Assembly (NCBI GenBank): GCA_015062305.1
Contig: SUUX01000001.1
Location: forward strand, 485-64,484
Source of the DNA: Alphaproteobacteria bacterium
GTDB taxonomy: Bacteria; Pseudomonadota; Alphaproteobacteria; RF32; CAG-239
DNA: 64,000 bases
Direction: 5' to 3'
Shown: piece by piece, positions 25,716 to 37,815 of the stretch
Numbering within the stretch: the first letter of the stretch is position 1
How the letters are laid out: each line of letters starts with the position of its first letter
Program-made: the position numbers and the translations under genes
Notes under the pieces: model-generated
Seen by the model: the letters and a program-made list of their open reading frames with translations, nothing else
What the model was told of the DNA's origin: nothing
Database searches by the model: none

Positions 25716-25737
25716 TGTGCTTTGAAGGAGTAATGTT

Positions 25738-27390
25738 ATGTTTGGACTGAAATCTGATTTGAGTAAAAATAAAGCGTGGAAAAAGCTGGCAAAGCATTAT
25801 AAAGATATGCGAGATGTTGAAATGAGAGGACTTTTTAGAAAAGATCCACAGAGAGCAGAGCGTTATTGCATTACTCTAGATTCTATTATGGTGGATTATT
25901 CTAAAAACAGAATAACCAATAAAACAATGGATTATTTATTTGAATTGGCTCAAGAAAAGAAGGTTCCTGAGAAAATTGAACAAATGTTTCGTGGAGATAA
26001 GATTAATCAGACAGAGAATAGAGCTGTTTTGCATGTGGCTTTGCGTAATAGAGAGAATTCTCCGATATATGTTGATGGCAAGAATATTATGGCAGATGTT
26101 AATGCTGTATTGGCAAAAATGCGCAAGTTTTCAGATGATGTTAGATTGGGTAAGTTTGTGGGTTATACCGGTAAAAAACTGGTGAATATTGTTAATATTG
26201 GAATAGGTGGATCTGATTTGGGGCCAAAAATGGCAACAGAGGCTTTGAGAAAATATTGGGCCAAGGATATTAATTGCTATTTTATATCTAATATTGACGG
26301 GACAGCTTGCAATGAAGTGTTGAATAAGATTAATCCAGAAGAGACATTGTTTATTGTATGTTCAAAAACTTTTACCACTATTGAGACTTTGACCAATGCG
26401 CATACATGCAGAAAATGGTTGATTGATGCATTGGGAGAACACGCTGTATCTAAACATTTTGTGGCAGTTTCTACTAATGCTAAAGAGGTGGCTAAGTTTG
26501 GTATTGATACCGAAAATATGTTTGAATTTTGGGATTTTGTCGGTGGTCGTTATTCTATGTGGTCGGCAATCGGGTTATCAATTGCTATAGCTGTCGGTAT
26601 GGATAATTTTGAAAAAATGCTTGATGGTGCACATGAGATGGATATGCATTTTAAGTATACTGAAATGTCAAAAAATATTCCGGTGATATTGGCTTTGTTG
26701 GGCGTTTGGTATAGTGACTTTTTTAATTTTAGAAGTACGGCAGTTGTACCTTATGACCAATATTTGCAATATGTGCCGGCTTATTTGCAGCAATTGGTAA
26801 TGGAAAGCAATGGAAAATTTGTGTCAAACGATGGAGAATATGTGAAATATATGACTTCTCCTGTTGTGTTTGGTGGGGCAGGTACAGATGTTCAGCATTC
26901 GTTTTTTCAGATGATGCATCAAGGTACATCAGTTATTCCGTGTGATATTATCGTGCCGGCTATTTCTCATAATGAAATTGGGGAACATCATGAAATTTTG
27001 GTAGCTAATGCATTGGCTCAGGGGGAGGCCTTGATGAAAGGTAAGACCGTTAAAGAAGCATATGATGAAATGCGACGTGCCGGAAAACCAAAAGAAGAAG
27101 CAAAACGGTTGAAGAAATATAAGAGTTTTGAAGGAAACAGACCTAGCAATACGATTTTGTTTAAGAAAATAGATGCTCATGCCTTGGGAATGTTGATTGC
27201 AATGTATGAGCATAAGACATTTGTAGAAGGAATTATTTGGAATATTGATTCTTTTGATCAGATGGGTGTGGAGCTGGGTAAACAGATGGCATTGAGCATA
27301 TTGCCAGAATTGCAAAGCAACGCTTCTGGAATTAGTCATGACAGCTCTACTAAAAATTTGATAACAATGGTTAAGCGGATGCGAAAATAG
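25738..27390 (+). CDS. pgi: glucose-6-phosphate isomerase
   Basis: PGI signatures (DFVGGRYSMWSAIG, GGAGTDVQHSFFQ). Confidence 0.9.
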   Translation: MFGLKSDLSKNKAWKKLAKHYKDMRDVEMRGLFRKDPQRAERYCITLDSIMVDYSKNRITNKTMDYLFELAQEKKVPEKIEQMFRGDKINQTENRAVLHVALRNRENSPIYVDGKNIMADVNAVLAKMRKFSDDVRLGKFVGYTGKKLVNIVNIGIGGSDLGPKMATEALRKYWAKDINCYFISNIDGTACNEVLNKINPEETLFIVCSKTFTTIETLTNAHTCRKWLIDALGEHAVSKHFVAVSTNAKEVAKFGIDTENMFEFWDFVGGRYSMWSAIGLSIAIAVGMDNFEKMLDGAHEMDMHFKYTEMSKNIPVILALLGVWYSDFFNFRSTAVVPYDQYLQYVPAYLQQLVMESNGKFVSNDGEYVKYMTSPVVFGGAGTDVQHSFFQMMHQGTSVIPCDIIVPAISHNEIGEHHEILVANALAQGEALMKGKTVKEAYDEMRRAGKPKEEAKRLKKYKSFEGNRPSNTILFKKIDAHALGMLIAMYEHKTFVEGIIWNIDSFDQMGVELGKQMALSILPELQSNASGISHDSSTKNLITMVKRMRK

Positions 27391-27400
27391 GAGTTTTTAA

Positions 27401-29224
27401 ATGTCTATCAGAGTGTTGCCATCTAATTTGGTAAACCAGATTGCAGCGGGAGAAGTTGTGGAGCGTCCGGCCTCTGTTGTTAAGGAGTTGGTAGAAAATG
27501 CTATTGATGCCGGGGCAACAAATGTGGAAGTGCGTTTGGTTGATGGTGGTAAAACGCTGATTGCGATATCTGACAATGGAAAGGGAATGTCTGCTTCTGA
27601 TTTGGAGATGGCTGTGGAACGCCATGCAACATCTAAATTGCCAGATGATAATTTGTTTAATATAAATTTTTTGGGGTTTAGAGGTGAGGCTCTTCCATCT
27701 ATTGCTTCTGTGGCTAGACTTTCTATTGTGAGCAGAAGTAAAAATGCTGATGATGCGTGGAAAATAGAGGTTAATGGAGGAGACAAATCGGCAGTTGTAC
27801 CGGCAGCACATGGGGTAGGAACAAGAATAGAAGTACGTGATTTGTTTTATGCAACTCCGGCAAGATTAAAGTTTTTGAAGACAGCTGCCACGGAAACGTC
27901 ACAATGTGTTGAGATATTGCAGAGAATTGCTTTGGCTAACCCTCAGATAGGCTTTTATTTATATGATGGAGATAAAAAGAAGATAGCTTTGCCTCCATGT
28001 AACGGAGATTTGTTTGAGGCAAGGTTAGAGAGAGTGGCTGCAGTGTTGGGACGAGAATTTTCGGAGAATTCGTTTAGGGTAAGCGCAGAACGTGAAGATG
28101 TTCAGATTAGTGGTTATGTATCTTTGCCTACACTCAATAAGGCTAACTCATTGTCTCAGTTTTTGTTTGTAAATAATCGTCCGGTGAGAGATAAGTTGTT
28201 GCTGGGAGCTCTTAGAGGAGCTTATCAAGATGTGTTAGCTTCAGGAAGGTATCCGTTGTGTGCGTTGTTTATTGATGTTGCTCCTAAATATGTAGATGTA
28301 AACGTGCATCCGGCCAAGGCTGAGGTGCGTTTTTTTGACGGGGCTTTGGTTAGAGGGTTGTTGGTAGGTGCGATTAGAAATGGACTTAATTTGCACGCAA
28401 ATAAAACGTCTAATGTTTTGAGCTTGGAGGAGTTAGTCGGCGACAAAATTCCAGATTTTGCTGAGCCTATTGCTGAAAATATGAGTTTGCAAGAAGGTGT
28501 TGTCCCTAATAGAATATATAACCCTCAATCTTTTGCTTATGGAAGTGCCAGAACGTATAAACAAAGTGCGTTGCCGGATTTGGAACGAAAGTTTTCGGTT
28601 AGAGTGGAAAATGTTGAAGATGTTGTTGAACGCTCTGATGTTGGTCCTCTTGGGTTGGCGAAAGCTCAGTTTCATGACACATATATAATATCACAAAATG
28701 AGGATAGCATAATTATAACAGATCAGCATGCCGCTCATGAAAGAATTGTAATGGAGAAATTAAAGGCCGGGTTAAGTGAGGGTCGTGTTGCTTCTCAGAT
28801 TTTATTGATTCCGGAGATTGTTGATTTACCAGATGCGGAAAAAAACAGAATTTTGGCGGCGGCAGTTGAATTGGAAAAGTTGGGTTTGGTATTGGAAGAG
28901 TTTGGAACAACGGCTGTTATTGTGAGAGAAACACCAGCTTTGTTAGGAGAGGTTGATGTTAAAAAGTTGGTTAAAGATGTGGCTGAGCAGATGGCTGAGT
29001 GGGGACGGGGTTTTGAGCTGACAGAAAAATTGCATTTAGTGTGTGCAACAATAGCTTGTCATGGTTCGGTTAGAGCCGGTAGACGTTTGAATATTGAAGA
29101 AATGAATAGGTTGTTGCGAGATATGGAAAAAACGCCTTATTCTGGTCAGTGTAATCATGGTCGTCCAACTTATGTTGAGTTGAAAATAAAAGATATTGCA
29201 AAATTATTTGACAGGAATCAATAG
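27401..29224 (+). CDS. mutL: DNA mismatch repair protein MutL
   Basis: GHKL ATPase N-terminus (IAAGEVVERPASVVKELVENAIDAGAT) and a C-terminal dimerisation domain. Confidence 0.9.
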   Translation: MSIRVLPSNLVNQIAAGEVVERPASVVKELVENAIDAGATNVEVRLVDGGKTLIAISDNGKGMSASDLEMAVERHATSKLPDDNLFNINFLGFRGEALPSIASVARLSIVSRSKNADDAWKIEVNGGDKSAVVPAAHGVGTRIEVRDLFYATPARLKFLKTAATETSQCVEILQRIALANPQIGFYLYDGDKKKIALPPCNGDLFEARLERVAAVLGREFSENSFRVSAEREDVQISGYVSLPTLNKANSLSQFLFVNNRPVRDKLLLGALRGAYQDVLASGRYPLCALFIDVAPKYVDVNVHPAKAEVRFFDGALVRGLLVGAIRNGLNLHANKTSNVLSLEELVGDKIPDFAEPIAENMSLQEGVVPNRIYNPQSFAYGSARTYKQSALPDLERKFSVRVENVEDVVERSDVGPLGLAKAQFHDTYIISQNEDSIIITDQHAAHERIVMEKLKAGLSEGRVASQILLIPEIVDLPDAEKNRILAAAVELEKLGLVLEEFGTTAVIVRETPALLGEVDVKKLVKDVAEQMAEWGRGFELTEKLHLVCATIACHGSVRAGRRLNIEEMNRLLRDMEKTPYSGQCNHGRPTYVELKIKDIAKLFDRNQ

Positions 29225-30001
29225 ATGATGGTTAATCAGGTGTTTTTACATGGATTTTTGGTCGCTCTTGGAGCAGGTTTGGTGACCGGCATAGGTGGTT
29301 TGTGCATATTTTTAAAAAAGCGTTATTTGAAAGCGGAGATTAATATGCTTTTGAATGTGGCTGCCGGTGTAATGTTGGCGGCATCGTTTTTCTCTCTGTT
29401 GGTGCCATCAATGCAAGAAATTGTTGTTAATGCTGATTTAGCACGAACTTCTTTGAACTATGTTTTGTCGGTGTTTGGAGGGGTTTTGTTGGTGTGGATA
29501 TTGAATTTGTTGATTCCACATGAGCATAATGCTATAGGACGTCATGGACCACATTTTGATCTGAAAAAAGCATGGTTGTTTATAATTGCAATTACTTTGC
29601 ACAAATTACCAGAGGGCTTGGCTGTCGGGGTTGCGTATGGTGCGGAGAGCATTGTTAATCCGACTTCTTTAGTTATAGGAATTGCAGTGCATAATATTCC
29701 GGAAGGATTAACAATAGCGATATCTTTAGTGGCAGCTGGAAATTCCAGATTAAAAGCGGCAATGACTGCTTTGGCAATAGGTTTGGTGCAACCTTTGGGA
29801 GCTATTGTGGGGTTGTTTTTGATGGGGCTGAGTTTTAATGTGGTGCCTTATGGTATGGCTTTTGCCGGAGGAACATTGCTGTTTGTTGTGATAAATGAGA
29901 TTTTACCAGAGACATATGGAAATCAGTCCACCAATAAATCTGCAGCGGCAGTATTTGTTGGTTTTATTGTTATGACGTATTTATCAATAATTTTTCATTA
30001 A
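29225..30001 (+). CDS. ZIP family metal transporter (ZupT-like)
   Basis: HNIPEGLAI/HKLPEGLAV motifs. Starts immediately after the mutL stop. Confidence 0.8.
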   Translation: MMVNQVFLHGFLVALGAGLVTGIGGLCIFLKKRYLKAEINMLLNVAAGVMLAASFFSLLVPSMQEIVVNADLARTSLNYVLSVFGGVLLVWILNLLIPHEHNAIGRHGPHFDLKKAWLFIIAITLHKLPEGLAVGVAYGAESIVNPTSLVIGIAVHNIPEGLTIAISLVAAGNSRLKAAMTALAIGLVQPLGAIVGLFLMGLSFNVVPYGMAFAGGTLLFVVINEILPETYGNQSTNKSAAAVFVGFIVMTYLSIIFH

Positions 30002-30015
30002 AATGAAAAAAAACG

Positions 30016-30044
30016 TTGACGATATGATAAACATGGTCTAAATA
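30016..30044 (+). promoter_or_regulatory. sigma70-like promoter for tRNA-Ser
   Basis: TTGACG, 17 bp spacer, TAAATA, about 20 bp upstream of the tRNA 5' end. Confidence 0.45.
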
Positions 30045-30064
30045 TAGACTTCGTTATCGCTTGT

Positions 30065-30151
30065 GGAGAGTTGGCAGAGTGGTAATGCAGCGGATTGCTA
30101 ATCCGTCATCGGGATACCGATGCACAGGTTCGAGTCCTGTACTCTCCGCCA
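30065..30151 (+). tRNA. tRNA-Ser (anticodon GCU)
   Basis: GGAGAGT...ACTCTCCGCCA acceptor, long variable arm, anticodon loop TTGCTAA, T-loop GGTTCGAGTCC. Confidence 0.9.
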
Positions 30152-30154
30152 CTT

Positions 30155-30183
30155 AAACCCTAGAGAAATCTAGGGTTTTGTTG
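30155..30183 (+). terminator. rho-independent terminator after tRNA-Ser
   Basis: aaaccctaga gaaa tctagggttt stem followed by tgttg. Confidence 0.65.
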
Positions 30184-30233
30184 TATCTGAAATCAGGTTA
30201 ACTGTTGGCTTTTTTGATAAATAGGGCTTTAAG

Positions 30234-30263
30234 TTGCACAATGTTACTCAAATTTTGCACAAT
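30234..30263 (+). promoter_or_regulatory. direct repeat TTGCACAAT x2 (operator-like) upstream of the SNF2-like gene
   Basis: Two exact 9-mers 21 bp apart, just upstream of the GAGGAG RBS at 30273. Confidence 0.3.
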
Positions 30264-30286
30264 TTTTGTTGTGAGGAGATAGTGTT

Positions 30287-31528
30287 GTGGTAAACAAAAT
30301 TAAATATCAGATAATAAAAAATAAAAAAGGTGGTATTGTATTGGCAATGCAACACGAAAAGAGAATTGCCGTTGCATCTAAAATAATTATTAAATTTGCG
30401 GAAGCTTGGGATAGAGTTGTGTGGATTGCTCCAAGCGGCTATTTGGATACGGATGAATATGAATTATTAATAAGAAAATATCTCAAGGGTTATTTTAATA
30501 AAGTAGGTCTATATTCTTATGATGATTTATCTCAAAGAAGTGATATATATTTAGAATTGTTAAATGCCGCAAAAACTCAAAGAGTGTTTGGTGTGGTTGA
30601 CGAGAATTTGTTTGTGAAGAATACATATTCTTGGCGAACAAAAAGAGTTAGTTTTTTGAGAGATTTTTTTACATTTAGGTTATTGTTGGCCAGAAACCTT
30701 ACTTCCAGAGGGTTGAGAGATATATATGCTCAGTTGAATTTTGTGTCGCCGGCAATATTGAAGATGACAGAAACACAATTTGTGCATCAATTTATGCCTT
30801 ATTATGAAGATGAATTTCAGATATCGAAAAGGTGGTCTAATCGTTTTTTTGATAGAAAAGTTTTGAATTTGATAAGACCTTTTTTGGTTTTTTGTTCTGC
30901 TTGGGATTTGAGTAATTTTGATTATCGAGAAATATGGTTTGAGCTAACTCCGCAGGAAAAAGAAGCCTATCGAAATGATAAAGAAATGTTTTTGCGTAAA
31001 AAAGATAGAGTTTGTTATTTGCAAGTGGTTCAACAATTTCAGTATTGTTATACAATATGTGTGAAAAAAGTTGATTACTTGCGTTTTTTGTTACAGCAGA
31101 TTAGAGATAAGAATGAGAAAGTTATTTTGTATACAAAATATTTGGGAGAAGTGAAATTTTTGAAAGAATCTGGTGTGTTGAAAGGTTCTAAATATGTAGT
31201 GATGTGTGGAACAACAGATAAGCAAAGAGCTATTGGACTATTTGCAACAGAATGTAATGTTATGATTTGCACATATAAGGTTGATATTCCAAGATTGGTG
31301 TTGAAAAACTGTCAGAACTTGATATACTTCTCTCAAACTTTTGATTACAAGGACAAGCTCTTTGCTATGTATAGGCTGTGCGGAAATCGTAAACATAAGG
31401 TTCGGATTTTTGATTTTTGGGTTAATACAAAGTTGGAGCTGATGATTAAGGATAATTTGCTACGCAAGCGTAAATTATTGCAAGAATTTAGTCAAATTAT
31501 CTCTGAAAATGGAGAATGTTGTTTATGA
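30287..31528 (+). CDS. SNF2-family helicase-like protein with degenerate catalytic motifs (predicted inactive)
   Basis: SNF2 motif order is recognisable. Motif I is GGIVLAMQHEKRI instead of ILADEMGLGKT. Motif Ia is VVWIAPSGYL. Motif II is VVDENLFVKN instead of DEAHrlKN. Motif III is RLLLARNLTSRGLRDIYAQLNFVSP instead of LLLTGTPlqN..ELwsLlnFL.P. The C-lobe has KVILYTKY..MCGTTDKQR..LFA..MICTY and AMYRLCGNRKHKVRIFDFWV instead of RahRiGQ. Confidence 0.5.
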   Translation: MVNKIKYQIIKNKKGGIVLAMQHEKRIAVASKIIIKFAEAWDRVVWIAPSGYLDTDEYELLIRKYLKGYFNKVGLYSYDDLSQRSDIYLELLNAAKTQRVFGVVDENLFVKNTYSWRTKRVSFLRDFFTFRLLLARNLTSRGLRDIYAQLNFVSPAILKMTETQFVHQFMPYYEDEFQISKRWSNRFFDRKVLNLIRPFLVFCSAWDLSNFDYREIWFELTPQEKEAYRNDKEMFLRKKDRVCYLQVVQQFQYCYTICVKKVDYLRFLLQQIRDKNEKVILYTKYLGEVKFLKESGVLKGSKYVVMCGTTDKQRAIGLFATECNVMICTYKVDIPRLVLKNCQNLIYFSQTFDYKDKLFAMYRLCGNRKHKVRIFDFWVNTKLELMIKDNLLRKRKLLQEFSQIISENGECCL

Positions 31529-32826
31529 AAATTTATCAAAAAGAAAATGTTTTTGATGCAACAATGAAAAGAATCAAATTTGCTTTTGATAATTTTGACA
31601 ATATCTATGTTTCTTTTTCTGGAGGAAAAGACAGCGGGTTGCTGCTGAATATGGTTTTGGATTACAAACGCAAGCATAATATCAAGAAAAAGATTGGTGT
31701 TTTTCATCAGGATTTTGAATCTCAATATCAGTTGACCACAGAATATGTAACAAAAATGTTTGATGATAATATTGATGATATTGAGCCGTATTGGGTTTGC
31801 TTGCCGATGGGATCCAGATGTGCGGTTAGCAATTTTCAGATGTATTGGTATCCATGGGATGATAAAAAGAAAGATTTGTGGGTTAGGGAGATGCCTAATC
31901 GTCCATATATAATTAATATGGAGAATAATCCTATTGACACCTATAAATATAAAATGGCTCAAGAAGATTTGTATATGGCATTTGGTAAATGGTTTGCTAA
32001 AACACATGCAGGAACAACTATTTGTATGGTGGGAATTAGAGCCGATGAATCTATAAATCGTTTTAGGGCTTATGCAAATACCAGAAAAACATTGATGAAA
32101 GATTCTCAATGGACTACTAAAATGGGTGAAAATTTTTATAATGCATATCCTCTTTATGACTGGACAACCAAAGATGTTTGGGTTGCTAATGGAAAAATGG
32201 GGTATGAGTATAATCGTATTTATGATTTGTTTTATAGAGCAGGGTTGAGTATCAACCAAATGAGGGTTTCTAGCCCATATCATGAGAATGCGAAAGAAAG
32301 TCTCAATTTATATAGGGTTTTGGAACCATCTACTTGGATTAAAGTGGTATCTCGCGTAAATGGGGCGAATTTTGCTGCAATATATGGCAGTACCAAAATT
32401 ATGGGAGTTGGAAAAATTACTCTGCCCAAAGGTCATACTTGGCGTAGTTATGTGAAGTTTTTGTTGGCCACTCTGCCAGAGGGAATAAGAAGAAACTATA
32501 TAAACAAGTTTAAGACGTCTATTCGTTTTTGGTGGAAAAAAGGCGGAGTGGTGTGTGAAGAAGCAATCAAAGAATTAGAAAAATGTAATTATAAGGTGCG
32601 AAACAACGGAAAGAGCTGCTACCATACTTTGAAAGATAGAATGGTTTTCTTGGGAACGCCGGATAATACAGATGATATAAAGTCTACAATAGATATTCCT
32701 TCGTGGAAACGTATGGCTGTTTGTATATTAAGAAATGACCATTTGTGCAAATACATGGGGTTTTCTCAGACAAAAAAACAGACTATGCGTGAGCGTGAAT
32801 TGATTGAAAAATATAAAAGTTTGTGA
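31525..32826 (+). CDS. IbrA-like PAPS-reductase-family PP-loop protein with C-terminal DUF3440-like region
   Basis: PP-loop SFSGGKDSG near the N-terminus. Long C-terminal extension typical of the PAPS_reduct+DUF3440 architecture. Start ATG overlaps the upstream stop as ATGA. Alternative start at 31516. Confidence 0.65.
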   Translation: MKIYQKENVFDATMKRIKFAFDNFDNIYVSFSGGKDSGLLLNMVLDYKRKHNIKKKIGVFHQDFESQYQLTTEYVTKMFDDNIDDIEPYWVCLPMGSRCAVSNFQMYWYPWDDKKKDLWVREMPNRPYIINMENNPIDTYKYKMAQEDLYMAFGKWFAKTHAGTTICMVGIRADESINRFRAYANTRKTLMKDSQWTTKMGENFYNAYPLYDWTTKDVWVANGKMGYEYNRIYDLFYRAGLSINQMRVSSPYHENAKESLNLYRVLEPSTWIKVVSRVNGANFAAIYGSTKIMGVGKITLPKGHTWRSYVKFLLATLPEGIRRNYINKFKTSIRFWWKKGGVVCEEAIKELEKCNYKVRNNGKSCYHTLKDRMVFLGTPDNTDDIKSTIDIPSWKRMAVCILRNDHLCKYMGFSQTKKQTMRERELIEKYKSL

Positions 32827-32833
32827 GGTGAAT

Positions 32834-33349
32834 ATGAAAAATTTTGTAAGCCCGGTTTATAATGTTTTGGCTGTGCCGGTAGAAAAGGTTAAAGCGAATG
32901 ATTATAATCCTAATAAGGTTGCACCTCCAGAGATGAAGTTGCTAGAACTTTCTATTTGGGAAGATGGTTTTACACAGCCGGTTGTGTGTTATTATGATAA
33001 AGATGCCGATGAATATATTGTGGTTGATGGTTTTCATAGATATACGGTTTTGAAAACAAGTGAAAGAATATTTGCCAGAGAAAAAGGCAAATTGCCAGTG
33101 GTGGTGATTGATAAGGAGTTAGGAGAGCGTATTGCTTCTACAATAAGACACAATAGAGCCAGAGGTAGCCATAATGTGGATTTGATGAGTAATATTGTGG
33201 CCGAGCTGCTGGAACTTGGTAAAAGTGATGCTTGGATTTGCCGTAATATAGGTATGTCGGCAGACGAACTCTTGAGATTGAAACAAGTGACAGGTCTGGC
33301 AGCATTGTTTAAAGATGATGAATTTTCTAAAAGTTGGGTTGTGGAATAG
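32834..33349 (+). CDS. IbrB-like ParB/Srx-type nuclease domain protein
   Basis: ParB N-terminal-domain motifs (FTQPVVCY..YIVVDGFHRYTVL; RHNRARG). GAGGTG RBS. An alternative TTG start at 32804 would overlap ibrA-like. Confidence 0.6.
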   Translation: MKNFVSPVYNVLAVPVEKVKANDYNPNKVAPPEMKLLELSIWEDGFTQPVVCYYDKDADEYIVVDGFHRYTVLKTSERIFAREKGKLPVVVIDKELGERIASTIRHNRARGSHNVDLMSNIVAELLELGKSDAWICRNIGMSADELLRLKQVTGLAALFKDDEFSKSWVVE

Positions 33350-33427
33350 TTTTTAGTTATTAGCTCTTTAAGTTTGGAAACTACTGCTTATATGAAAAAA
33401 ATAAGTGTAAGCAGAAGGAGGTTTGGT

Positions 33428-34351
33428 ATGCAAAATATTTTGTTGAATAATGATGTGGAAATGCCGATTTTGGGGCTGGGGACTTGGTTGTCTGAGCCGG
33501 GTGAGGTTTATCAGGCCGTTCGTTGGGCAATAAAGTTGGGATATAAGCATATTGATTGTGCTTCAATTTATGGAAATCAGAAAGAAATCGGACAGGCTTT
33601 GCATGATGCAATTGCAGAAAAAGACATAAAAAGAGAGGAGTTGTTTGTAACCTCTAAGTTGTGGAATGATTGTCATGCCCCACAAGATGTAGAGCCAGCA
33701 TTGAAACAAACATTGCAAGATTTGCAACTTGATTATTTGGATCTATATTTGATACATTGGCCAGTGGCTCAGGTTAAAGGTGTGTTAATGCCACAAAAAG
33801 ATGAAGATTGGATAGAGCTGGAAAAATTGCCATTGGAGGAAACTTGGGCAGAAATGGAAAAGCTTTATGAAAATGGTTTGGTGAGGGCAATTGGCGTTTC
33901 TAATTTTAGTGATAAACAGCTTGAAGACTTAATGAAAAAATCAAAAATTGTGCCAATGGTGAACCAAATTGAATGTCATCCATTCTTGCAACAGTCAGAG
34001 TTGATTGATTTTGCAAAGAAAAATAATATAGCGATTACAGCATATTCACCTTTGGGAGCCAAACCTAGGGACAAAGGAGAGCATTTGCTGGAAAATGAAG
34101 AGATTGTTGGCTTGGCAAACAAATTGAATGCAACTCCAGCGCAGATTGTGTTGGCATGGCAGATGCAGAGAGGGGTAATTGTTATTCCAAAATCTGTGCA
34201 TGAAAATAGAATACGTGAAAATTTTGCGGCGCAGGTAGTTAAGCTTGATGAGGCAGACGTGAAGGTAATAGAAAGACTGGATAAAGGATATAGATTTATT
34301 ACCGGCAACAGTTTTGTTAATCCCAATAAAGGCTATTCTGCTATATTTTGA
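33428..34351 (+). CDS. aldo/keto reductase
   Basis: AKR signatures (LGLGTW, IDCASIYGNQKEIG, LYLIHWP, IPKS). AGGAGG RBS before ATG 33428. The track ORF starts further upstream at 33374. Confidence 0.85.
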   Translation: MQNILLNNDVEMPILGLGTWLSEPGEVYQAVRWAIKLGYKHIDCASIYGNQKEIGQALHDAIAEKDIKREELFVTSKLWNDCHAPQDVEPALKQTLQDLQLDYLDLYLIHWPVAQVKGVLMPQKDEDWIELEKLPLEETWAEMEKLYENGLVRAIGVSNFSDKQLEDLMKKSKIVPMVNQIECHPFLQQSELIDFAKKNNIAITAYSPLGAKPRDKGEHLLENEEIVGLANKLNATPAQIVLAWQMQRGVIVIPKSVHENRIRENFAAQVVKLDEADVKVIERLDKGYRFITGNSFVNPNKGYSAIF

Positions 34352-34353
34352 GT

Positions 34354-35301
34354 TTAATGAAGAAGAAAATTAGCTAACTCGAGCGGGTTTTCCCATTCGA
34401 TGCAGATTTCTAATACTTTGAATTTGCTTTGTAGGTGGGGTGGAATTTTTACAAAGTCTTTAGATGTTGTATAAACGGGAGATTTGTGTTTTTTTCCTAA
34501 GTCAAGAAGTTGTTGTAGTTCTGCCTCTGTATAAAAATGATGATCGGGAAAATCTTGTGTGGCAACAACATTAAAACCACATTCTTTTAGAGAATCATAA
34601 AACTTAGATGGTCGGCCAATGCCGGCAAAAGCCACAACATCATAGGTGAGGGGAGATGGAGATACAGCCTTTATTTTGCCTTTGAATACCGGAATGTCGG
34701 TGAAGTCTTTGGCCAGATTATATTTGTCTTGACCAATTATTACAACGGCATTTGCCCTTTTTAGGCCAAGGTTTTTGAACTCTCTCATCGGTCCGGCAGG
34801 AATACAGAAGCCATTGCCAAAGCCAACGCTACCATCTATGACCAGGAGTGAGCAATCTTTGTAAAGAGAGGGATTTTGATAGCCATCATCCATAATTATG
34901 TAGTCTGCTCCTTCCATGGCAGCCATAAGAGCGCCTTGGTAACGATTGGGGTTGATTATAACAGGAGCTTGTCTGGCCAGAATAAGAGGTTCGTCACCAA
35001 CATCGACAGCTGAATGTTTCTGTGGAGATACTTGTATTCCTTTTAGACGTCCACCATATCCACGGCTTACAAAAAAAGGTTTTTTGCCGTTTTGTTGCAA
35101 AAGTTTGGCAAGAGATACAGAAACAGGGGTTTTGCCGGTTCCTCCTGCTGTCAAATTGCCAACACATATAACTTTAGCTTCAACTCTAAGGGGTTTTTTG
35201 AATATAAGACGCAATGCTGTTGCAAACCCGTATAATAAGCCAAACGGGTAAAGAATTAAAGAAAGTAAATTTATTGATTTCCAATGAGTTGGTGTCTTCA
35301 C
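34354..35301 (-). CDS. lpxK: tetraacyldisaccharide 4'-kinase
   Basis: Walker A GNLTAGGTGKTP. Confidence 0.85.
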   Translation of the reverse strand: MKTPTHWKSINLLSLILYPFGLLYGFATALRLIFKKPLRVEAKVICVGNLTAGGTGKTPVSVSLAKLLQQNGKKPFFVSRGYGGRLKGIQVSPQKHSAVDVGDEPLILARQAPVIINPNRYQGALMAAMEGADYIIMDDGYQNPSLYKDCSLLVIDGSVGFGNGFCIPAGPMREFKNLGLKRANAVVIIGQDKYNLAKDFTDIPVFKGKIKAVSPSPLTYDVVAFAGIGRPSKFYDSLKECGFNVVATQDFPDHHFYTEAELQQLLDLGKKHKSPVYTTSKDFVKIPPHLQSKFKVLEICIEWENPLELANFLLH

Positions 35302-36561
35302 TTAAACAAATCCTTTAACTTTATCCATGATACCATCAAGCACTTTGGCTTCACTTGTTGCCCAATTATATGCCAATGAACGTTTGGCATCTAATAAATC
35401 TTTGTTTTCTAAAAGTTGAGCAACAATTTCTTCCAGCTCGACAGTATCCGTTACTTGAATGATAGCATCTGCTTTTTTGGCTCTGTTCATGGCATCGGTG
35501 AAGTTGTGCATATGAGGACCGACAATTACGGCATCTCTAACACGAGAAGGCTCTATAAAGTTTTGACCTCCATGAGGGATTAGTGAGCCTCCGATGAATA
35601 CAAGGTTGGAGATATCATACCATATACCCATTTCTCCAATGGTGTCGGCAATATAGATATCTGTGGTAGGGGTTATTTTTTCTTGTGTGGAACGAAGGGA
35701 TACGGAAAGACCGAGATTTTCACTTTCTTTTTTGATGTCTGCACCTCGTTGCGGGTGGCGAGGTGCGATGATAGTTAGCAAATCTGGGAATTTTTCTTTT
35801 AATCTTTTGTGTATTTTAGCAATGCGTATTTCTTCATCATTGTGAGTTGAGCTGGCCAACCAAAATGTGCGATTGCCAATTTGTTTGAGGATTACAGATT
35901 TTTTTTCTTCATCAATAGGAAGAGGAAATCCTGCATATTTGATATTGCCAAGACACATCGTGTTTGGTGCGCCTAGTACTTGTAAACGGTAGGCATCTTC
36001 TTCTGATTGTCCAAGACAGAGATGAAAACAACTCAATAGTTCTTTGCTAATAAAGTCAAATTGTTGCCAACGTTTGAATGATTTGTTAGAAATGCGACCG
36101 TTTATTAGGATAAGGGGGATATTTTTGCGTTTGATGCAAGAGAGGATTGAAGGCCAAAATTCTGACTCAAACCAAAGAGCAACATCAGGGTGCCAGTATT
36201 TGATGAAACGAGTTGTGAATATTGGGTTATCAATTGGAATATACTGGTGAAAAGCTCGTTCTGGCAGTCGTTTGTTCATTACGTCTGCAGAGGTAACGGT
36301 ACCGGTTGTTACCATGACATGAGCATCTGGATAGGTGTCTACTATTTTTTGAATAAGAGGAAGCATGGAAATAGATTCTCCAACAGAAGCTCCGTGTAAC
36401 CATACCAATTTTCCGTCAGGACGTTTGAGAGAGGGACGGCCAACACGCTCATTGAAGCGAGAAGCATCTTCTTTGCCGTTTGCAAGGCGTTTTTTGATGT
36501 ATCTTTTTATTACCAAAGGATATAAAATGGTAATGAGAGTGTTGTATATGTTTATGAACAT
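35302..36561 (-). CDS. waaA: 3-deoxy-D-manno-octulosonic acid transferase
   Basis: KdtA N-terminal motif WLHGASVGE and a GT-B C-terminal domain. Abuts lpxK. Confidence 0.9.
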   Translation of the reverse strand: MFINIYNTLITILYPLVIKRYIKKRLANGKEDASRFNERVGRPSLKRPDGKLVWLHGASVGESISMLPLIQKIVDTYPDAHVMVTTGTVTSADVMNKRLPERAFHQYIPIDNPIFTTRFIKYWHPDVALWFESEFWPSILSCIKRKNIPLILINGRISNKSFKRWQQFDFISKELLSCFHLCLGQSEEDAYRLQVLGAPNTMCLGNIKYAGFPLPIDEEKKSVILKQIGNRTFWLASSTHNDEEIRIAKIHKRLKEKFPDLLTIIAPRHPQRGADIKKESENLGLSVSLRSTQEKITPTTDIYIADTIGEMGIWYDISNLVFIGGSLIPHGGQNFIEPSRVRDAVIVGPHMHNFTDAMNRAKKADAIIQVTDTVELEEIVAQLLENKDLLDAKRSLAYNWATSEAKVLDGIMDKVKGFV

Positions 36562-36564
36562 CTG

Positions 36565-37335
36565 TTATTTCCTTTTTGATGGGCGGTGTTTTGCATTTAT
36601 GGATTTAGAATCCGGCAATATCGGTTGCAATCCCATTTCTGTATCACATTCGTGAGTAATTCGATTTAGTTCATTTTCAAGCAATTTGCGATATTCTTCT
36701 AATTTTGGTTCTGTAGCGTCGGCTGGAATATATATGGGTTTTGTTGTTTTGCAAACACCTTTTGAAAAGGGAAAAGGCAACATGGTCTTATCCCATGCTT
36801 TTTCGATGATTTTGGAATTTTGAATGCTGTATGCAGCTCCGATAATGGGTTTTCCGGTCTTGAGAGCGTAGTATATAGGGGATTTGCCCATGTGCATACG
36901 AGGCCCCCTAGGTCCGTCGGGAATAATACATATAGATGTATCTTTTTTGATTGTTCTCATAAGGTCTAACGCTCCACCAGTAGCGTTTTCATTGCTGGAG
37001 CCGTCTATTATGCCGATACCGAATCTTTTGAGTAGGCCGGCAATCATTTGACCATCTCGGTGAGGCGATACAAGGGCGCTTAGGGGTAGGTCTTTTTGTT
37101 TGAAATAGGGCAACATTACAGCTCTGCCGTGCCATATAACTAATATTACGCCATTGTTTTCTTTGGCGAGCCGGTGAAATTCTTCTACTCCTTCAGTGTG
37201 CCAACGTGTGGTCTGTCCGACAAATTTGGCATATAAATATAGTATGGCGGATATTGTTTGCAACACAAAGCCAGAGTTGCCAATTTTTTGGAGTGGTTTT
37301 TTGATATATTTTTTATAAAATTTAGTTTTCTTCAT
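36565..37335 (-). CDS. DUF374 (lysophospholipid-acyltransferase-like) protein
   Basis: VIWHGR...SPHRDGQ...IIPDGPRGP motifs. Commonly encoded next to waaA. Confidence 0.7.
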   Translation of the reverse strand: MKKTKFYKKYIKKPLQKIGNSGFVLQTISAILYLYAKFVGQTTRWHTEGVEEFHRLAKENNGVILVIWHGRAVMLPYFKQKDLPLSALVSPHRDGQMIAGLLKRFGIGIIDGSSNENATGGALDLMRTIKKDTSICIIPDGPRGPRMHMGKSPIYYALKTGKPIIGAAYSIQNSKIIEKAWDKTMLPFPFSKGVCKTTKPIYIPADATEPKLEEYRKLLENELNRITHECDTEMGLQPILPDSKSINAKHRPSKRK

Positions 37336-37338
37336 CGT

Positions 37339-37590
37339 TTATTTATTAGAAACAGTATCTGTTACGCTAATGCCAATAGTTTCGTTGTCTGTGATAACAA
37401 CTTCTCCATGGCCGATTAAAATATCATTTGCATAGATATCCACGTTGTCATTGATATCTCTATCAAGTTCAACCACAGCACCACGGCCGAGCTTGAGTAA
37501 TTGGTGTACTCGCAAGTCTGCAGATCCCAGAGTGACAGATACGTTAACAGAAATGTCGTTATTGAATAATAAGTCTTTGTTGATTGCCAT
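37339..37590 (-). CDS. FliN/YscQ-like SpoA-domain protein
   Basis: VSVTLGSADLRVHQLLKLGRGAVVELDR...NDILIGHGEVVITDNETIGISVT aligns along its length with the FliN C-terminal SpoA domain. GGAG RBS before ATG 37590. Confidence 0.5.
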   Translation of the reverse strand: MAINKDLLFNNDISVNVSVTLGSADLRVHQLLKLGRGAVVELDRDINDNVDIYANDILIGHGEVVITDNETIGISVTDTVSNK

Positions 37591-37815
37591 TATATACTCC
37601 AAATGTGACAAGTGTAATCTGTAACTATTATATATATTTTTTTTAATCTGCAAATTTTTTATTGCATTTTATCACCGTAAAAATATTTGTGGATTATACA
37701 AATTGCATTTGCGAAGAGATATCAGATGTGGCAAAAAAGTTTAGAGGAGAATCTTGCATAGGTTAGGACTCTTTCCTATATAGATTACATAACTTATTTT
37801 TATAAAAGGTGAAAC

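What the first reader, a model, noticed from the sequence alone, without database searches (positions are those of the whole stretch)
30155..33349. Candidate DNA-modification/defence cassette at tRNA-Ser: dead SNF2-like protein + IbrA-like PP-loop + IbrB-like ParB nuclease
Immediately after tRNA-Ser and its terminator lies a tight three-gene unit. Gene 1 starts at a GTG with a GAGGAG RBS. Genes 1 and 2 overlap as ATGA. Gene 3 starts 7 nt after gene 2.

Gene 1 has recognisable SNF2 N- and C-lobe motif order. Yet its Walker A lysine (GKT to KRI), DEAH box (to DENL) and arginine finger (RiGQ to LCGN) appear replaced, which points to a non-catalytic SNF2 scaffold.

Gene 2 has the SGGKDS PP-loop of PAPS-reductase/DndC-like enzymes plus a long C-terminal region of the DUF3440 type (IbrA architecture). 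Gene 3 is a ParB/Srx-fold nuclease-like protein (IbrB architecture).

PP-loop plus ParB pairs have been proposed from comparative genomics as DNA base/backbone modification systems. To my knowledge, pairing with an inactivated SNF2 is not a described system. The tRNA-adjacent location and the TTGCACAAT x2 operator-like repeat upstream fit an acquired, regulated cassette. No integrase or att repeat was found here, so the mobility mechanism is unclear.
Basis: partly seen in the sequence, partly recalled or inferred. Interest (0 to 1): 0.8.

Follow-up and report, generated by a model that had tools for sequence, protein, structure and literature searches.

The report
Domesticated phage trio with dead helicase
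A three-gene unit that phages carry (an SNF2 motor protein plus the little-understood IbrA and IbrB enzymes) is kept in the chromosome of many gut Alphaproteobacteria with its motor switched off, so it looks like an old host function of unknown chemistry, not a recently acquired defence cassette.

Summary
Three tightly packed + strand genes follow tRNA-Ser(GCT): g1 30287-31528, g2 31525-32826 (ATGA overlap) and g3 32834-33349. g2 is IbrA-type (PP-loop plus DUF3440) and g3 is IbrB-type (ParB/Srx). g1 has an SNF2 fold but has lost motifs I, V and VI.

The SNF2-IbrA-IbrB trio is common in phages, where the ATPase motifs are intact. The motor-dead form occurs as an intact trio in 74 species-representative genomes of uncultured, mostly gut, Alphaproteobacteria. 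About 30 share the window's synteny; the rest lie in at least seven other ordinary chromosomal contexts.

Among syntenic species IbrA and IbrB are 84% and 88% identical on average, above MutL, WaaA, Zip and LpxK (63-79%). g1 averages 50%, yet dN/dS is 0.01-0.12. The window has no integrase, nuclease effector or defence-model hit. The TTGCACAAT repeat is species-specific and overlaps promoter-like hexamers.

Best reading: an anciently domesticated phage module. An enzymatically intact IbrA/IbrB pair probably works on DNA with a non-motor SNF2 scaffold. The chemistry is unknown, and no cysteine is invariant across the family, unlike DndC. I found no published description of the trio or its dead-motor form.

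The parts
30065..30151 (+). tRNA-Ser(GCT), the conserved left neighbour of the trio in the syntenic species
   Evidence: ARAGORN and Rfam tRNA at 62.5 bits. The same tRNA lies upstream of the trio in every syntenic locus scanned (L006, L015-L017, L019-L021, L024, L025, L028, L029, L039, L042, L083, L092), inverted in L021. Its first 47 nt are identical in the 14 of these compared.
30155..30178 (+). Terminator-like hairpin of the tRNA gene
   Evidence: 10-bp stem followed by a T-rich tail.
30234..30263 (+). Probable promoter of the operon. It holds the two TTGCACAAT copies (30234-30242 and 30255-30263). One reading is TTGCAC as -35, an 18-nt spacer and CACAAT as -10. The scan also offers TTGATA (30214) / 17 nt / CACAAT (30237-30242).
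   Evidence: Repeat family D16 and the promoter scan. The 9-mer is found upstream of g1 only in the window's own species, among about 84 loci. Assigning it as a promoter is inference.
30273..30278 (+). GAGGAG ribosome-binding site, 8 nt before the GTG start of g1
   Evidence: Read directly from the sequence.
30287..31528 (+). g1: a 413-aa minimal SNF2-fold protein with no N- or C-terminal accessory domains. ATP-site motifs I (GxGKT), V (GxGSxGLNLQ) and VI (RxYRTGQ) are lost. Motifs Ia, II, III and IV and the QTFDYKDK block are kept. It is a pseudo-ATPase.
   Evidence: dN/dS is 0.01-0.12 between close species.
31525..32826 (+). g2: a 433-aa IbrA-type protein with an N-terminal PAPS-reductase-like PP-loop ATP pyrophosphatase domain (SGGKDS) and a C-terminal DUF3440. 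It is translationally coupled to g1 through an ATGA overlap.
   Evidence: Pfam DUF3440 6e-77 and PAPS_reduct 5e-11. PHROG 2302 5e-111. 30% identity to E. coli YbdN, E 3e-65. The PP-loop and the RxxESxxR residues are invariant in 88 sequences, and no cysteine is invariant. Junction sequence.
32834..33349 (+). g3: a 171-aa IbrB-type protein with a ParB/Srx-like N-terminal domain (invariant NDYNPN, DGxHR, RHNRARGxH) and a short C-terminal helical region.
   Evidence: Pfam ParB_N at 21.6 bits, below the cut-off. PHROG 2159 2.6e-78. 52% identity to E. coli YbdM. Invariant residues; junction sequence. Reading the C-terminal region as a DNA-binding helix-turn-helix is inference.
30211..30235 (.). Left copy of a 25-nt imperfect direct repeat. 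The right copy (33350-33374) begins at the first base after the g3 stop codon, so the pair brackets the operon.
   Evidence: Repeat family D2, 19 of 25 bases matching. By my own estimate about 20 matches of this quality are expected by chance in 3.9 kb of AT-rich DNA, so this may be coincidence. Its conservation in other species was not tested.

Best explanation
The locus is one operon. It is the chromosomally fixed descendant of a phage gene trio: SNF2 ATPase, IbrA and IbrB.

In phages and phage-like contigs the SNF2 partner has a complete ATP site. In a large clade of uncultured, mostly gut, Alphaproteobacteria, which includes the organism of this window, the same trio is kept intact, but the SNF2 protein has become a pseudo-ATPase. 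It retains the fold and the blocks outside the ATP site. By analogy with characterised SNF2 enzymes these include the DNA-contacting surface, though I did not test that here.

Proposed mechanism (inferred, not shown):
1. IbrB, a ParB/Srx domain with a helical tail, binds DNA and a nucleotide.
2. IbrB recruits IbrA, an active PP-loop ATP pyrophosphatase. IbrA adenylates a target, most likely a group on the nucleic acid itself. The chemistry would be related to the DndB/DndC pair but would not involve sulfur.
3. The dead SNF2 protein acts as a static DNA-holding adaptor. In the phage version it would instead be a translocating motor.

The likely output is a host-serving mark on, or remodelling of, chromosomal DNA that affects gene expression. 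This would fit the only phenotype known for the family, which I cite from memory because the paper could not be opened: IbrA and IbrB activate prophage eib genes in E. coli ECOR-9 (Sandt et al. 2002).

The evolutionary status is shown by the data. The biochemical steps are inference.
For: Gene structure and domains.

SNF2 fold with a dead ATP site.

Phage origin:
- The trio with intact GTGKT / DES / RxGQ lies on a phage contig with terminase and portal genes (L010) and on phage-like contigs L011 and L012.
- It is present in Flavobacterium phage FCL-2 between the terminase and portal genes and in Lactobacillus phage AQ113.
- It is present in Streptococcus phages.
- On IMG/VR viral contigs, IbrA and IbrB homologues flank the SNF2 gene in 15 of 18. 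All 12 with a full-length SNF2 match have the three motifs intact.

Fixation in the host clade:
- 74 of 80 species-representative genomes carry the dead form. g1-g2-g3 are adjacent wherever the contig allows.
- There are at least 8 ordinary chromosomal contexts, for example next to flgI/K/L, mnmA, rml genes and an HD-domain gene. No integrase lies within about 5 kb.
- One IbrA sequence is recorded in 8544 sample blocks and on contigs of 1.9-2.0 Mb.

Selection:
- dN/dS is 0.01-0.12 for g1, 0.01-0.07 for g2 and 0-0.05 for g3, with one g3 outlier of 0.18.
- Mean pairwise identity among 15 syntenic species is g2 0.84 and g3 0.88, against MutL 0.78, WaaA 0.79, Zip 0.74, LpxK 0.63 and g1 0.50.

Enzymes are intact: the PP-loop and RxxESxxR in IbrA, and DGxHR and RHNRARGxH in IbrB, are invariant across host and phage copies.

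Precedents:
- E. coli K-12 keeps a chromosomal ybdN-ybdM pair with no SNF2 gene. It is repressed by YbdO/CitR (PMC9068703).
- An inactive SNF2-type domain has been proposed as a DNA binder in DndH (PMC10853773).
Against: - No biochemical activity of IbrA or IbrB is known, no structure of either family is solved, and my IbrA model failed (pLDDT 50). The substrate is therefore a guess.
- The trio is not strictly universal or fixed in place. It sits in several contexts, and one relative with mutL-zip-tRNA-Ser has no trio within 2.7 kb of that site (L119).
- A whole-trio allele has been exchanged between two close relatives, and g1 evolves much faster than g2 and g3. Both are also typical of conflict genes.
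- Pairwise distances of g1-g3 correlate poorly with those of the flanks (Spearman 0.12-0.24). The tree is star-like and MutL itself gives only 0.36, so vertical descent is supported by synteny and not by phylogeny.
- Presence or absence across all genomes of the clade was not measured.
Confidence: 0.6

Rival explanations
1. One reading: a horizontally acquired anti-phage or DNA-modification cassette, inserted at tRNA-Ser, that marks self DNA and/or restricts foreign DNA.
For: - PP-loop plus ParB-like pairs parallel DndC/DndB, with weak PADLOC hits to DndC (1e-6) and BrxP (2e-5).
- tRNA-Ser is a live integration site: L132 carries an integrase element exactly at the tRNA 3' end.
- g1 has lower GC (0.32) than the flanks (0.37-0.41).
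- A whole-trio allele was swapped between close relatives.
- The ATPase-intact form sits beside integrases in a Holosporaceae MAG and an 'Opitutales' MAG.
Against: - The operon and its neighbours contain no nuclease or other effector gene, and no defence-system model is matched.
- The trio is present in 74 species representatives and syntenic in about 30.
- IbrA and IbrB are more conserved than housekeeping neighbours.
- The motor that a scanning or restricting system would need is dead in all of them.
- The window has no integrase or convincing att repeat.
Confidence: 0.15
2. A purely regulatory complex with no covalent nucleic-acid chemistry. IbrB would act as a ParB-like nucleotide-switched DNA binder or anti-silencer, IbrA as its nucleotide-handling partner, and the dead SNF2 as an adaptor to RNA polymerase or the nucleoid (RapA-like).
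For: - The only phenotype reported for the family is activation of prophage eib genes by IbrA and IbrB (Sandt et al. 2002, cited from memory; the paper was not readable).
- Sources name these proteins 'co-activator of prophage gene expression'.
- RapA is among the structural matches of g1.
- The very high conservation of the small IbrB protein (52% between this organism and E. coli) would suit a protein with many fixed contacts.
Against: - The complete, invariant PP-loop catalytic set in IbrA argues for real adenylating chemistry on some substrate.
- IbrB lacks the GERRxR CTP-binding box of ParB switches and has DGxHR instead.
- RapA ranks 25th with a poor TM-score (0.48), below ISWI and INO80.
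Confidence: 0.2
3. A decaying prophage remnant. g1 would be on its way to becoming a pseudogene, and the operon would have no function for the host.
For: - g1 has lost its catalytic motifs and is the least conserved and most AT-rich of the three genes.
- The trio is of phage origin.
Against: - g1 is full length (about 407-480 aa as read from the first in-frame start; 407-457 aa in public gene calls) in every alphaproteobacterial locus where its contig does not cut it.
- Its dN/dS is 0.01-0.12 even where dS is 0.4-2.
- Several blocks, such as QTFDYKxK, EKVIIY and FWVxT, are at least 80% conserved.
- Translational coupling to g2 is preserved.
Confidence: 0.03

Closest known systems
IbrA/IbrB of E. 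coli ECOR-9 ('immunoglobulin-binding regulator', activators of prophage eib genes) and the E. coli K-12 paralogues YbdN/YbdM
   Same: The two-gene architecture is the same: PAPS-reductase-like PP-loop plus DUF3440, followed by a small ParB/Srx-like protein. g2 is 30% identical to YbdN (E 3e-65) and g3 is 52% identical to YbdM. ybdNM is also a chromosomal, non-mobile copy.
   Different: ybdNM has no SNF2-like partner and is preceded by a LysR repressor gene (PMC9068703). Whether the ECOR-9 IbrAB island has an SNF2 gene could not be checked, because the paper is not held. The biochemical function is unknown for all of these proteins.
The uncharacterised phage trio SNF2-like helicase + IbrA + IbrB (Flavobacterium phage FCL-2, Lactobacillus phages AQ113 and CR28, Streptococcus phages PY2 and CHPC1062, Listeria phage fragments, IMG/VR contigs)
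   Same: The same three families are always adjacent, and the SNF2 partner is about 390-415 aa long, as in the window's g1. The window's proteins are 25-36% (g1), 30-48% (g2) and 40-74% (g3) identical to the phage copies.
   Different: Phage copies keep GTGKT, DESxxIKN and RxGQ. Gene order varies (g1-g2-g3, g2-g3-g1, g1-g3-g2). They lie among phage structural or replication genes. The window's copy is chromosomal, motor-dead and conserved across a bacterial clade.
DndB/DndC of the Dnd DNA phosphorothioation system (also SspD and BrxP)
   Same: A ParB-superfamily protein is paired with a PAPS-reductase-like PP-loop ATP pyrophosphatase that acts on DNA. Hits are weak: TIGR03183 DndC E 6e-4 and PADLOC DndC 1e-6.
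   Different: DndC has a 4Fe-4S cluster held by three cysteines plus a cysteine dyad (PMC10853773). IbrA has no cysteine conserved across the family. No DndA, DndD or DndE homologues appear among the neighbours. The scores are far below the family cut-offs (18.8 against 290 bits).
Inactive SWI2/SNF2-type domain of DndH
   Same: It is a precedent for an SNF2-derived module that has lost its ATP-binding signatures and arginine fingers and is proposed to serve as a DNA binder in a DNA-modification-linked system (PMC10853773).
   Different: DndH retains only the second (C-terminal) lobe, fused into a giant multidomain protein with an active nuclease and a HerA/FtsK ATPase. g1 is a free-standing two-lobe SNF2 core.
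Canonical SNF2 ATPases (Sulfolobus Rad54-like 1z63, ISWI, INO80, RapA)
   Same: The two-lobe fold and the order of the motifs are shared. Foldseek gives E about 1e-15 and TM up to 0.74; a family profile hits the PDB at about 1e-16.
   Different: There are no accessory domains, and the ATP-site motifs I, V and VI are destroyed in the window's clade.

Membership tests
SNF2 family (Pfam SNF2-rel_dom PF00176 / Helicase_C PF00271) | Sequence and fold homology to the two-lobe SNF2 ATPase core | tested here: met
   The window protein has no Pfam hit of its own at E<=1. Support comes from PHROG 62 at 8e-17, homologues carrying PF00176 and PF00271, family-profile hits to PDB SNF2 chains at about 1e-16, and Foldseek matches to ISWI and INO80 at about 1e-15 with a model of pLDDT 83.
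SNF2 family (as an active ATPase) | Walker A GxGKT (motif I), DExx (motif II), and the glycine-rich motif V and arginine-finger motif VI (RxGQ) | tested here: not met
   The window reads HEKRI at GTGKT, DIPRLVLK at GSxGLNLQ and YRLCGN at RxYRTGQ. Only D-E of motif II is kept. All 74 alphaproteobacterial copies show the same losses, while phage copies are intact.
IbrA / YbdN family | PAPS_reduct PP-loop domain with SGGKDS, followed by DUF3440 | tested here: met
   DUF3440 at 257.9 bits (cut-off 25) and PAPS_reduct at 43.3 bits (cut-off 22.5). The PP-loop is invariant. 30% identity to YbdN over the full length.
IbrB / YbdM family (ParB/Srx superfamily) | ParB_N-like domain with a DGxHR-type motif, encoded next to an IbrA gene | tested here: met
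   Pfam ParB_N scores 21.6 bits, below the 26.3 cut-off. PHROG 2159 gives 2.6e-78 and identity to YbdM is 52%. DGFHR is invariant. The gene lies 7 nt after g2. Nuclease activity was not tested and is not implied.
Dnd / Ssp phosphorothioation systems | A DndC/SspD-type enzyme with Fe-S and sulfur-relay cysteines, together with DndA/IscS, DndD and DndE (or SspABC) partners | tested here: not met
   The DndC model scores 18.8 bits against a cut-off of 290. No cysteine is conserved across the family. None of the partner genes appears in the window or in related loci. Housekeeping IscS elsewhere in the genome cannot be excluded.
Known anti-phage defence systems (PADLOC-DB 2.0) | A match of the gene set to a described system model | tested here: not met
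   Only weak single-gene similarities were found: ZorD 0.003, DndC 1e-6, BrxP 2e-5, and nothing for g3.
Integrated mobile element / genomic island at a tRNA | Integrase, flanking att direct repeats including the tRNA 3' end, patchy distribution and a compositional anomaly | tested here: not met
   There is no integrase in 27-37 kb of the window and no repeat of the tRNA 3' end. The only bracketing repeat is a 19/25 match that may be chance. The trio is present and syntenic in about 30 species. GC is only mildly lower in g1. An ancient integration event cannot be excluded.
Core (housekeeping-like) locus of the clade | Present in all members, single context, evolving at a housekeeping rate | tested here: inconclusive
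   The trio is present in 74 species representatives, and g2 and g3 are more conserved than their neighbours. Against this, there are at least 8 contexts, one relative lacks it at the tRNA-Ser site (L119), there is one allele swap, and the clade's full genome set was not surveyed.

The most novel reading that the evidence does not exclude
The SNF2-IbrA-IbrB trio would be an undescribed, sulfur-independent nucleic-acid modification or marking machine of phage origin. IbrA would adenylate a position on DNA and IbrB would target it. In phages the SNF2 motor would spread the activity along the genome. A whole order-level clade of gut Alphaproteobacteria would have captured the trio, killed the motor and turned the dead SNF2 into a fast-evolving, site-restricting specificity subunit. 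The result would be a new kind of host epigenetic or chromosome-marking system.
Probability: 0.25. Interest if true: 0.85.

Novelty: new variant of a known kind. Interest (0 to 1): 0.55.

Why it matters
IbrA/IbrB (YbdN/YbdM in E. coli K-12) is a very widespread enzyme pair. More than 7000 IbrA relatives scored in one capped search. It has no known chemistry.

This locus adds three things:
1. The pair normally travels with a small SNF2 motor in phages, a trio I did not find described in the literature.
2. An abundant lineage of gut bacteria has kept the trio for a long time under strong purifying selection. IbrA and IbrB are better conserved there than MutL or WaaA, which implies a function useful to the cell and not only to a phage.
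3. Nature has already made the separation-of-function mutant. The motor is dead yet retained, so the SNF2 protein must contribute something other than ATP-driven translocation.

This gives direct handles for experiments. Phage and host trios can be compared, with and without g1, by nucleoside mass spectrometry, IbrB ChIP and transcriptomics. It also warns against labelling PP-loop plus ParB gene pairs as defence systems from architecture alone.

Tried and rejected
- **Pfam and NCBIfam on g1** gave nothing. Homology needed PHROGs, family alignment, a PDB profile search and a fold search.
- **IbrA structure.** Only homologues of at least 74% identity were returned. The AlphaFold model had pLDDT 50, with the DUF3440 part below 50, so I ran no fold search on it and learned nothing about DUF3440.
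- **PDB sequence searches** with g2 and g3 found no solved relatives of use.
- **Literature.** Eight searches found only incidental mentions of IbrA/IbrB. Two of them were swamped by 'iBRB' (blood-retinal barrier) and similar strings. Sandt et al. 2002 (PMC135156) is not held.
- **TTGCACAAT as a conserved operator: rejected.** It is not present upstream of g1 in any other species.
- **Rfam** found no RNA element in the leader, only the three tRNAs of the window.
- **Distance correlation** between the trio and the flanking genes, meant to prove vertical descent, was uninformative. The divergence is star-like, and even MutL correlates at only 0.36.
- **Scan of metagenome contigs with the tRNA-Ser sequence** for empty sites. 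Most hits were too short or came from distant relatives with other synteny. It yielded one integrase insertion (L132) and one site without the trio (L119), but it cannot show whether those genomes carry the trio elsewhere.
- **The 25-nt bracketing repeat** was considered as an att remnant and left as unproven.
- **Decaying pseudogene reading of g1: rejected** on dN/dS and full-length retention.

Full report
**1. What is in the sequence**

tRNA-Ser(GCT) lies at 30065-30151. A hairpin terminator follows at 30155-30178. Three + strand genes come next:
- g1, 30287-31528, 413 aa. It starts at GTG, with GAGGAG 8 nt upstream.
- g2, 31525-32826, 433 aa. Its ATG overlaps the g1 stop as ATGA.
- g3, 32834-33349, 171 aa. 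It starts 7 nt after the g2 stop, with a GAGGTGA-like ribosome-binding site across that stop.

Gene calls on five public contigs that carry the identical sequence agree with these boundaries. The flanks are ordinary chromosomal genes: pgi, mutL and a ZIP transporter upstream, and an aldo-keto reductase, lpxK, waaA and DUF374 downstream.

**2. What the three proteins are**

g2 is a textbook IbrA/YbdN protein. It matches DUF3440 at 6e-77 and PAPS_reduct at 5e-11, and it has the SGGKDS PP-loop. It is 30% identical to E. coli YbdN over its full length.

g3 is an IbrB/YbdM protein. It scores below the Pfam ParB_N cut-off (21.6 against 26.3 bits). It matches PHROG 2159 at 2.6e-78 and is 52% identical to YbdM.

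g1 gives no Pfam or NCBIfam hit, yet it is clearly an SNF2-fold protein:
- PHROG 62 'DNA helicase' matches at 8e-17.
- It has 77 homologues, full-length ones about 400-457 aa long, most carrying precomputed PF00176.
- A family profile hits Ino80 and the Sulfolobus SNF2 core 1z63 at about 1e-16 to 1e-15.
- An AlphaFold model of pLDDT 83 matches ISWI, INO80, Snf2h, Chd1, Mot1 and CSB at Foldseek E about 1e-15.

The family contains intact members with MGTGKT, DESxxIKN, GxGSxGLNLQ and HRIYRTGQ. Aligned to them, the window protein has HEKRI, DENLFVKN, DIPRLVLK and YRLCGN. Motifs I, V and VI are gone, and motif II is largely kept. The correction is that the DExx box is not really lost and that motif V is lost as well.

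**3. Where the trio comes from**

The same three families sit side by side in phages:
- a metagenomic phage contig with terminase and portal genes (L010);
- phage-like contigs with primase-helicase and methylase genes (L011 and L012);
- Flavobacterium phage FCL-2, between the terminase and portal genes;
- Lactobacillus phage AQ113;
- Streptococcus phages, where the genes are annotated 'DNA helicase | PAPS reductase | ParB-like' or 'IbrA | IbrB'.

Among isolate phage records, an SNF2 relative is found in 90 of 90 Flavobacterium, 18 of 21 Streptococcus, 3 of 3 Lactobacillus and 2 of 3 Listeria records that have an IbrA match. I inspected adjacency only in a sample of these records.

On IMG/VR viral contigs, IbrA and IbrB homologues lie beside the SNF2 gene in 15 of 18. 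All 12 with a full-length SNF2 match have intact GTGKT, DESxxIKN and RxGQ. An SNF2 partner for IbrA/IbrB is thus the rule in phages, although eight searches of the held paper library did not find it described as a unit.

**4. Where the dead-motor form occurs**

A scan of one genome per species returned 80 loci. Seventy-four are uncultured Alphaproteobacteria, mostly from gut samples by their record titles (CAG:495, Ca. Scatocola, MAGs labelled 'Azospirillaceae', and others). All 74 have lost motifs I, V and VI, and a minority have also lost the E of motif II. In every locus long enough to tell, g1, g2 and g3 are adjacent and in the same order.

The six remaining loci have intact motifs. Five are MAGs labelled Opitutales and one is Holosporaceae UBA3830. 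Two of them have a tyrosine-recombinase gene beside or near the trio.

About 30 of the 74 share the window's arrangement: pgi-mutL-zip-tRNA-Ser-[trio]-(AKR)-lpxK-waaA-DUF374. The others fall into at least seven further contexts made of ordinary genes. These include flagellar flgI/K/L, mnmA, an ABC-F ATPase, rml genes, an HD-domain protein, a nitroreductase and a uvrA-like gene. No integrase lies within about 5 kb. One IbrA sequence of this clade is on record in 8544 sample blocks and on contigs of 1.9-2.0 Mb, so these are abundant organisms.

**5. Selection**

Between close species pairs, dN/dS is 0.01-0.12 for g1, 0.01-0.07 for g2 and 0-0.05 for g3 (one g3 outlier at 0.18). Neighbouring housekeeping genes fall in the same range.

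Mean pairwise protein identity among 15 syntenic species:

| Protein | Mean identity |
|---|---|
| g3 (IbrB) | 0.88 |
| g2 (IbrA) | 0.84 |
| WaaA | 0.79 |
| MutL | 0.78 |
| Zip | 0.74 |
| LpxK | 0.63 |
| g1 (dead SNF2) | 0.50 |

IbrA and IbrB are therefore more constrained than the housekeeping flanks. The dead SNF2 evolves fast but is clearly maintained.

Within g1, the dead clade keeps at 80% or more the blocks WIAP (Ia), FCVxDxSxxIKN (II), YRLxLSxxP (III), EKVIIY (IV), QTFDYKxK and FWVxT. It is somewhat better conserved than the phage forms across residues 241-300. What survives is the fold and the blocks outside the ATP site. I take these to include the DNA-contacting surface by analogy with characterised SNF2 enzymes, but I did not test that.

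**6. Regulation and mobility claims**

The TTGCACAAT repeat (30234-30242 and 30255-30263) occurs upstream of g1 only in the window's own species. It overlaps -35/-10-like hexamers: TTGCAC, 18 nt, CACAAT, or TTGATA, 17 nt, CACAAT. Other species have their own promoter-like sequences there. Examples are TTGACA-17-TATAGT in L006, L032 and L037, and a TTTACC(A/G)GCAA motif in the eight loci L015-L017, L023, L024, L033, L040 and L083, all among those with g1 most similar to the window's. I read the repeat as promoter sequence and not as a conserved operator.

The window has no integrase and no repeat of the tRNA 3' end. A 25-nt 19/25 direct repeat brackets the operon exactly (30211-30235 and 33350-33374), but matches of that quality are expected by chance.

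tRNA-Ser itself is a live integration site. In a strain 99.6% identical to L151 up to the last base of the tRNA, a 683-aa recombinase-like gene follows the tRNA where L151 has the trio 538 nt downstream. That accounts for the variable small ORFs seen between the tRNA and g1 in several species. It also makes an ancient integration of a trio-bearing element at this tRNA plausible, though unproven.

Two observations keep some mobility in the picture:
- L016 and L083 are 95-97% identical in the flanks but only 75-90% identical across the trio, with sharp edges. This is an allele replacement.
- A relative with mutL-zip-tRNA-Ser has a TerC-like gene and no trio at that site (L119).

**7. What it most likely does**

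The following points are shown:
- The trio is of phage ancestry.
- It has been retained for a long time in a bacterial clade.
- IbrA and IbrB keep their catalytic residues, which are invariant across host and phage copies: the PP-loop and RxxESxxR in IbrA, and DGxHR, NDYNPN and RHNRARGxH in IbrB.
- The SNF2 ATP site is dead.

The following points are inferred. IbrB binds DNA and a nucleotide and positions IbrA. IbrA uses ATP to adenylate a target, most likely on nucleic acid. The SNF2 protein holds DNA without moving on it.

The nearest mechanistic analogue is DndB/DndC, but DndC's Fe-S and relay cysteines (PMC10853773) have no counterpart here. No cysteine is conserved across the IbrA family, and no Dnd partner genes are nearby. 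Sulfur insertion is therefore unlikely.

The only phenotype I know for the family is activation of prophage eib genes by IbrA and IbrB in E. coli (Sandt et al. 2002, cited from memory; the paper was not readable). E. coli K-12 keeps a chromosomal ybdNM pair under a LysR repressor (PMC9068703). A host-serving DNA-marking or regulatory role fits these facts better than defence does.

The arguments against defence are the absence of an effector gene, the absence of any defence-model match, the dead motor in all 74 species, and conservation above housekeeping level. I put about 0.6 on the overall reading, domesticated phage module with an enzymatically active IbrA/IbrB pair and a scaffold SNF2. 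Separately, I put covalent nucleic-acid chemistry at roughly 0.4. The rivals score about 0.2 for a purely regulatory complex, 0.15 for a defence cassette and 0.03 for a decaying remnant.

**8. Novelty and verdict**

IbrA/IbrB-type pairs are known, although their function is not. The phage trio is visible in annotations, but I did not find it described. The clade-wide, motor-dead, strongly conserved chromosomal version was absent from all the literature I searched. I class it as a new variant of a known kind and give it an interest of about 0.55. It is not the mobile defence cassette that was proposed. It is a useful natural experiment on an enzyme pair whose function has been open for more than twenty years.

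Noticed in passing
L132:6795-9008 (human-gut contig OJOH01000019.1), compared with L151: The two contigs are 99.6% identical up to the last base of tRNA-Ser(GCT). After that point L132 carries a 683-aa tyrosine-recombinase-like ORF where L151 has the trio. The tRNA-Ser next to the trio is therefore a currently used integration site for another mobile element.
   Followed up: partly
L016:6560-10117 compared with L083: The flanks are 95-97% nucleotide-identical, but g1 is 75-80%, g2 85-88% and g3 about 90% identical, with sharp boundaries at the edges of the operon. A divergent allele of the whole trio has been swapped in between close relatives. The stretch between zip/tRNA-Ser and g1 also carries large indels.
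   Followed up: partly
window 30211-30235 and 33350-33374: A 25-nt imperfect direct repeat (19 of 25 bases) brackets the operon. The right copy starts at the first base after the g3 stop codon. It may be chance, two similar promoter or UP regions, or an old junction. I did not test whether it is conserved in other species.
   Followed up: no
L015, L016, L017, L023, L024, L033, L040, L083: 60-80 nt upstream of g1: The motif TTTACC(A/G)GCAA occurs at a similar distance upstream of g1 in eight loci, all among those whose g1 is most similar to the window's. One of them (L033) lies in a different genomic context. The background frequency is 0.4 per kb. It is probably the -35 region or a regulator site of the operon. 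The window has TTGCACAAT x2 at that position instead.
   Followed up: partly
window 24000-40000: GC skew on the + strand is very strong and sustained, about +0.3 to +0.39, wherever genes are on the + strand. It drops towards 0 only over the minus-strand block lpxK-waaA-DUF374 (34.3-37.3 kb). This is unusually marked strand asymmetry for a 38% GC genome.
   Followed up: no
L008:6162-7734, L050, L068; L011:6623-7279; L012:190-846: An N6/N4 DNA methyltransferase gene lies beside the dead-motor trio in one alphaproteobacterial context, usually together with a Pro-rich lipoprotein gene. It also lies two to three small genes upstream of the intact trio on phage-like contigs. This may be an ancestral neighbour of the trio.
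   Followed up: no
L090:5903-10975 (Holosporaceae UBA3830) and L088:7866-14579 ('Opitutales' MAG): The ATPase-intact form of the trio occurs in bacterial chromosomes next to tyrosine-recombinase genes. In L090 the order is lon, integrase, trio. In L088 the integrase is 2.6 kb downstream. These look like small integrative islands made of little more than an integrase and the trio.
   Followed up: partly
L119:5802-8587: A relative with mutL (70%), zip (71%) and tRNA-Ser in the same order has a TerC-like membrane protein, a 174-aa ORF and a Ham1-like gene downstream of the tRNA, and no trio within 2.7 kb. Either the trio lies elsewhere in that genome or it is absent.
   Followed up: partly
window 33428-34351 and loci L006, L024, L032, L037, L042: The aldo-keto reductase gene immediately downstream of g3 is present in most syntenic species but missing in several. 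It is separated from g3 by only 78 nt, with no terminator-like site found, so in the window it may be co-transcribed with the trio.
   Followed up: no
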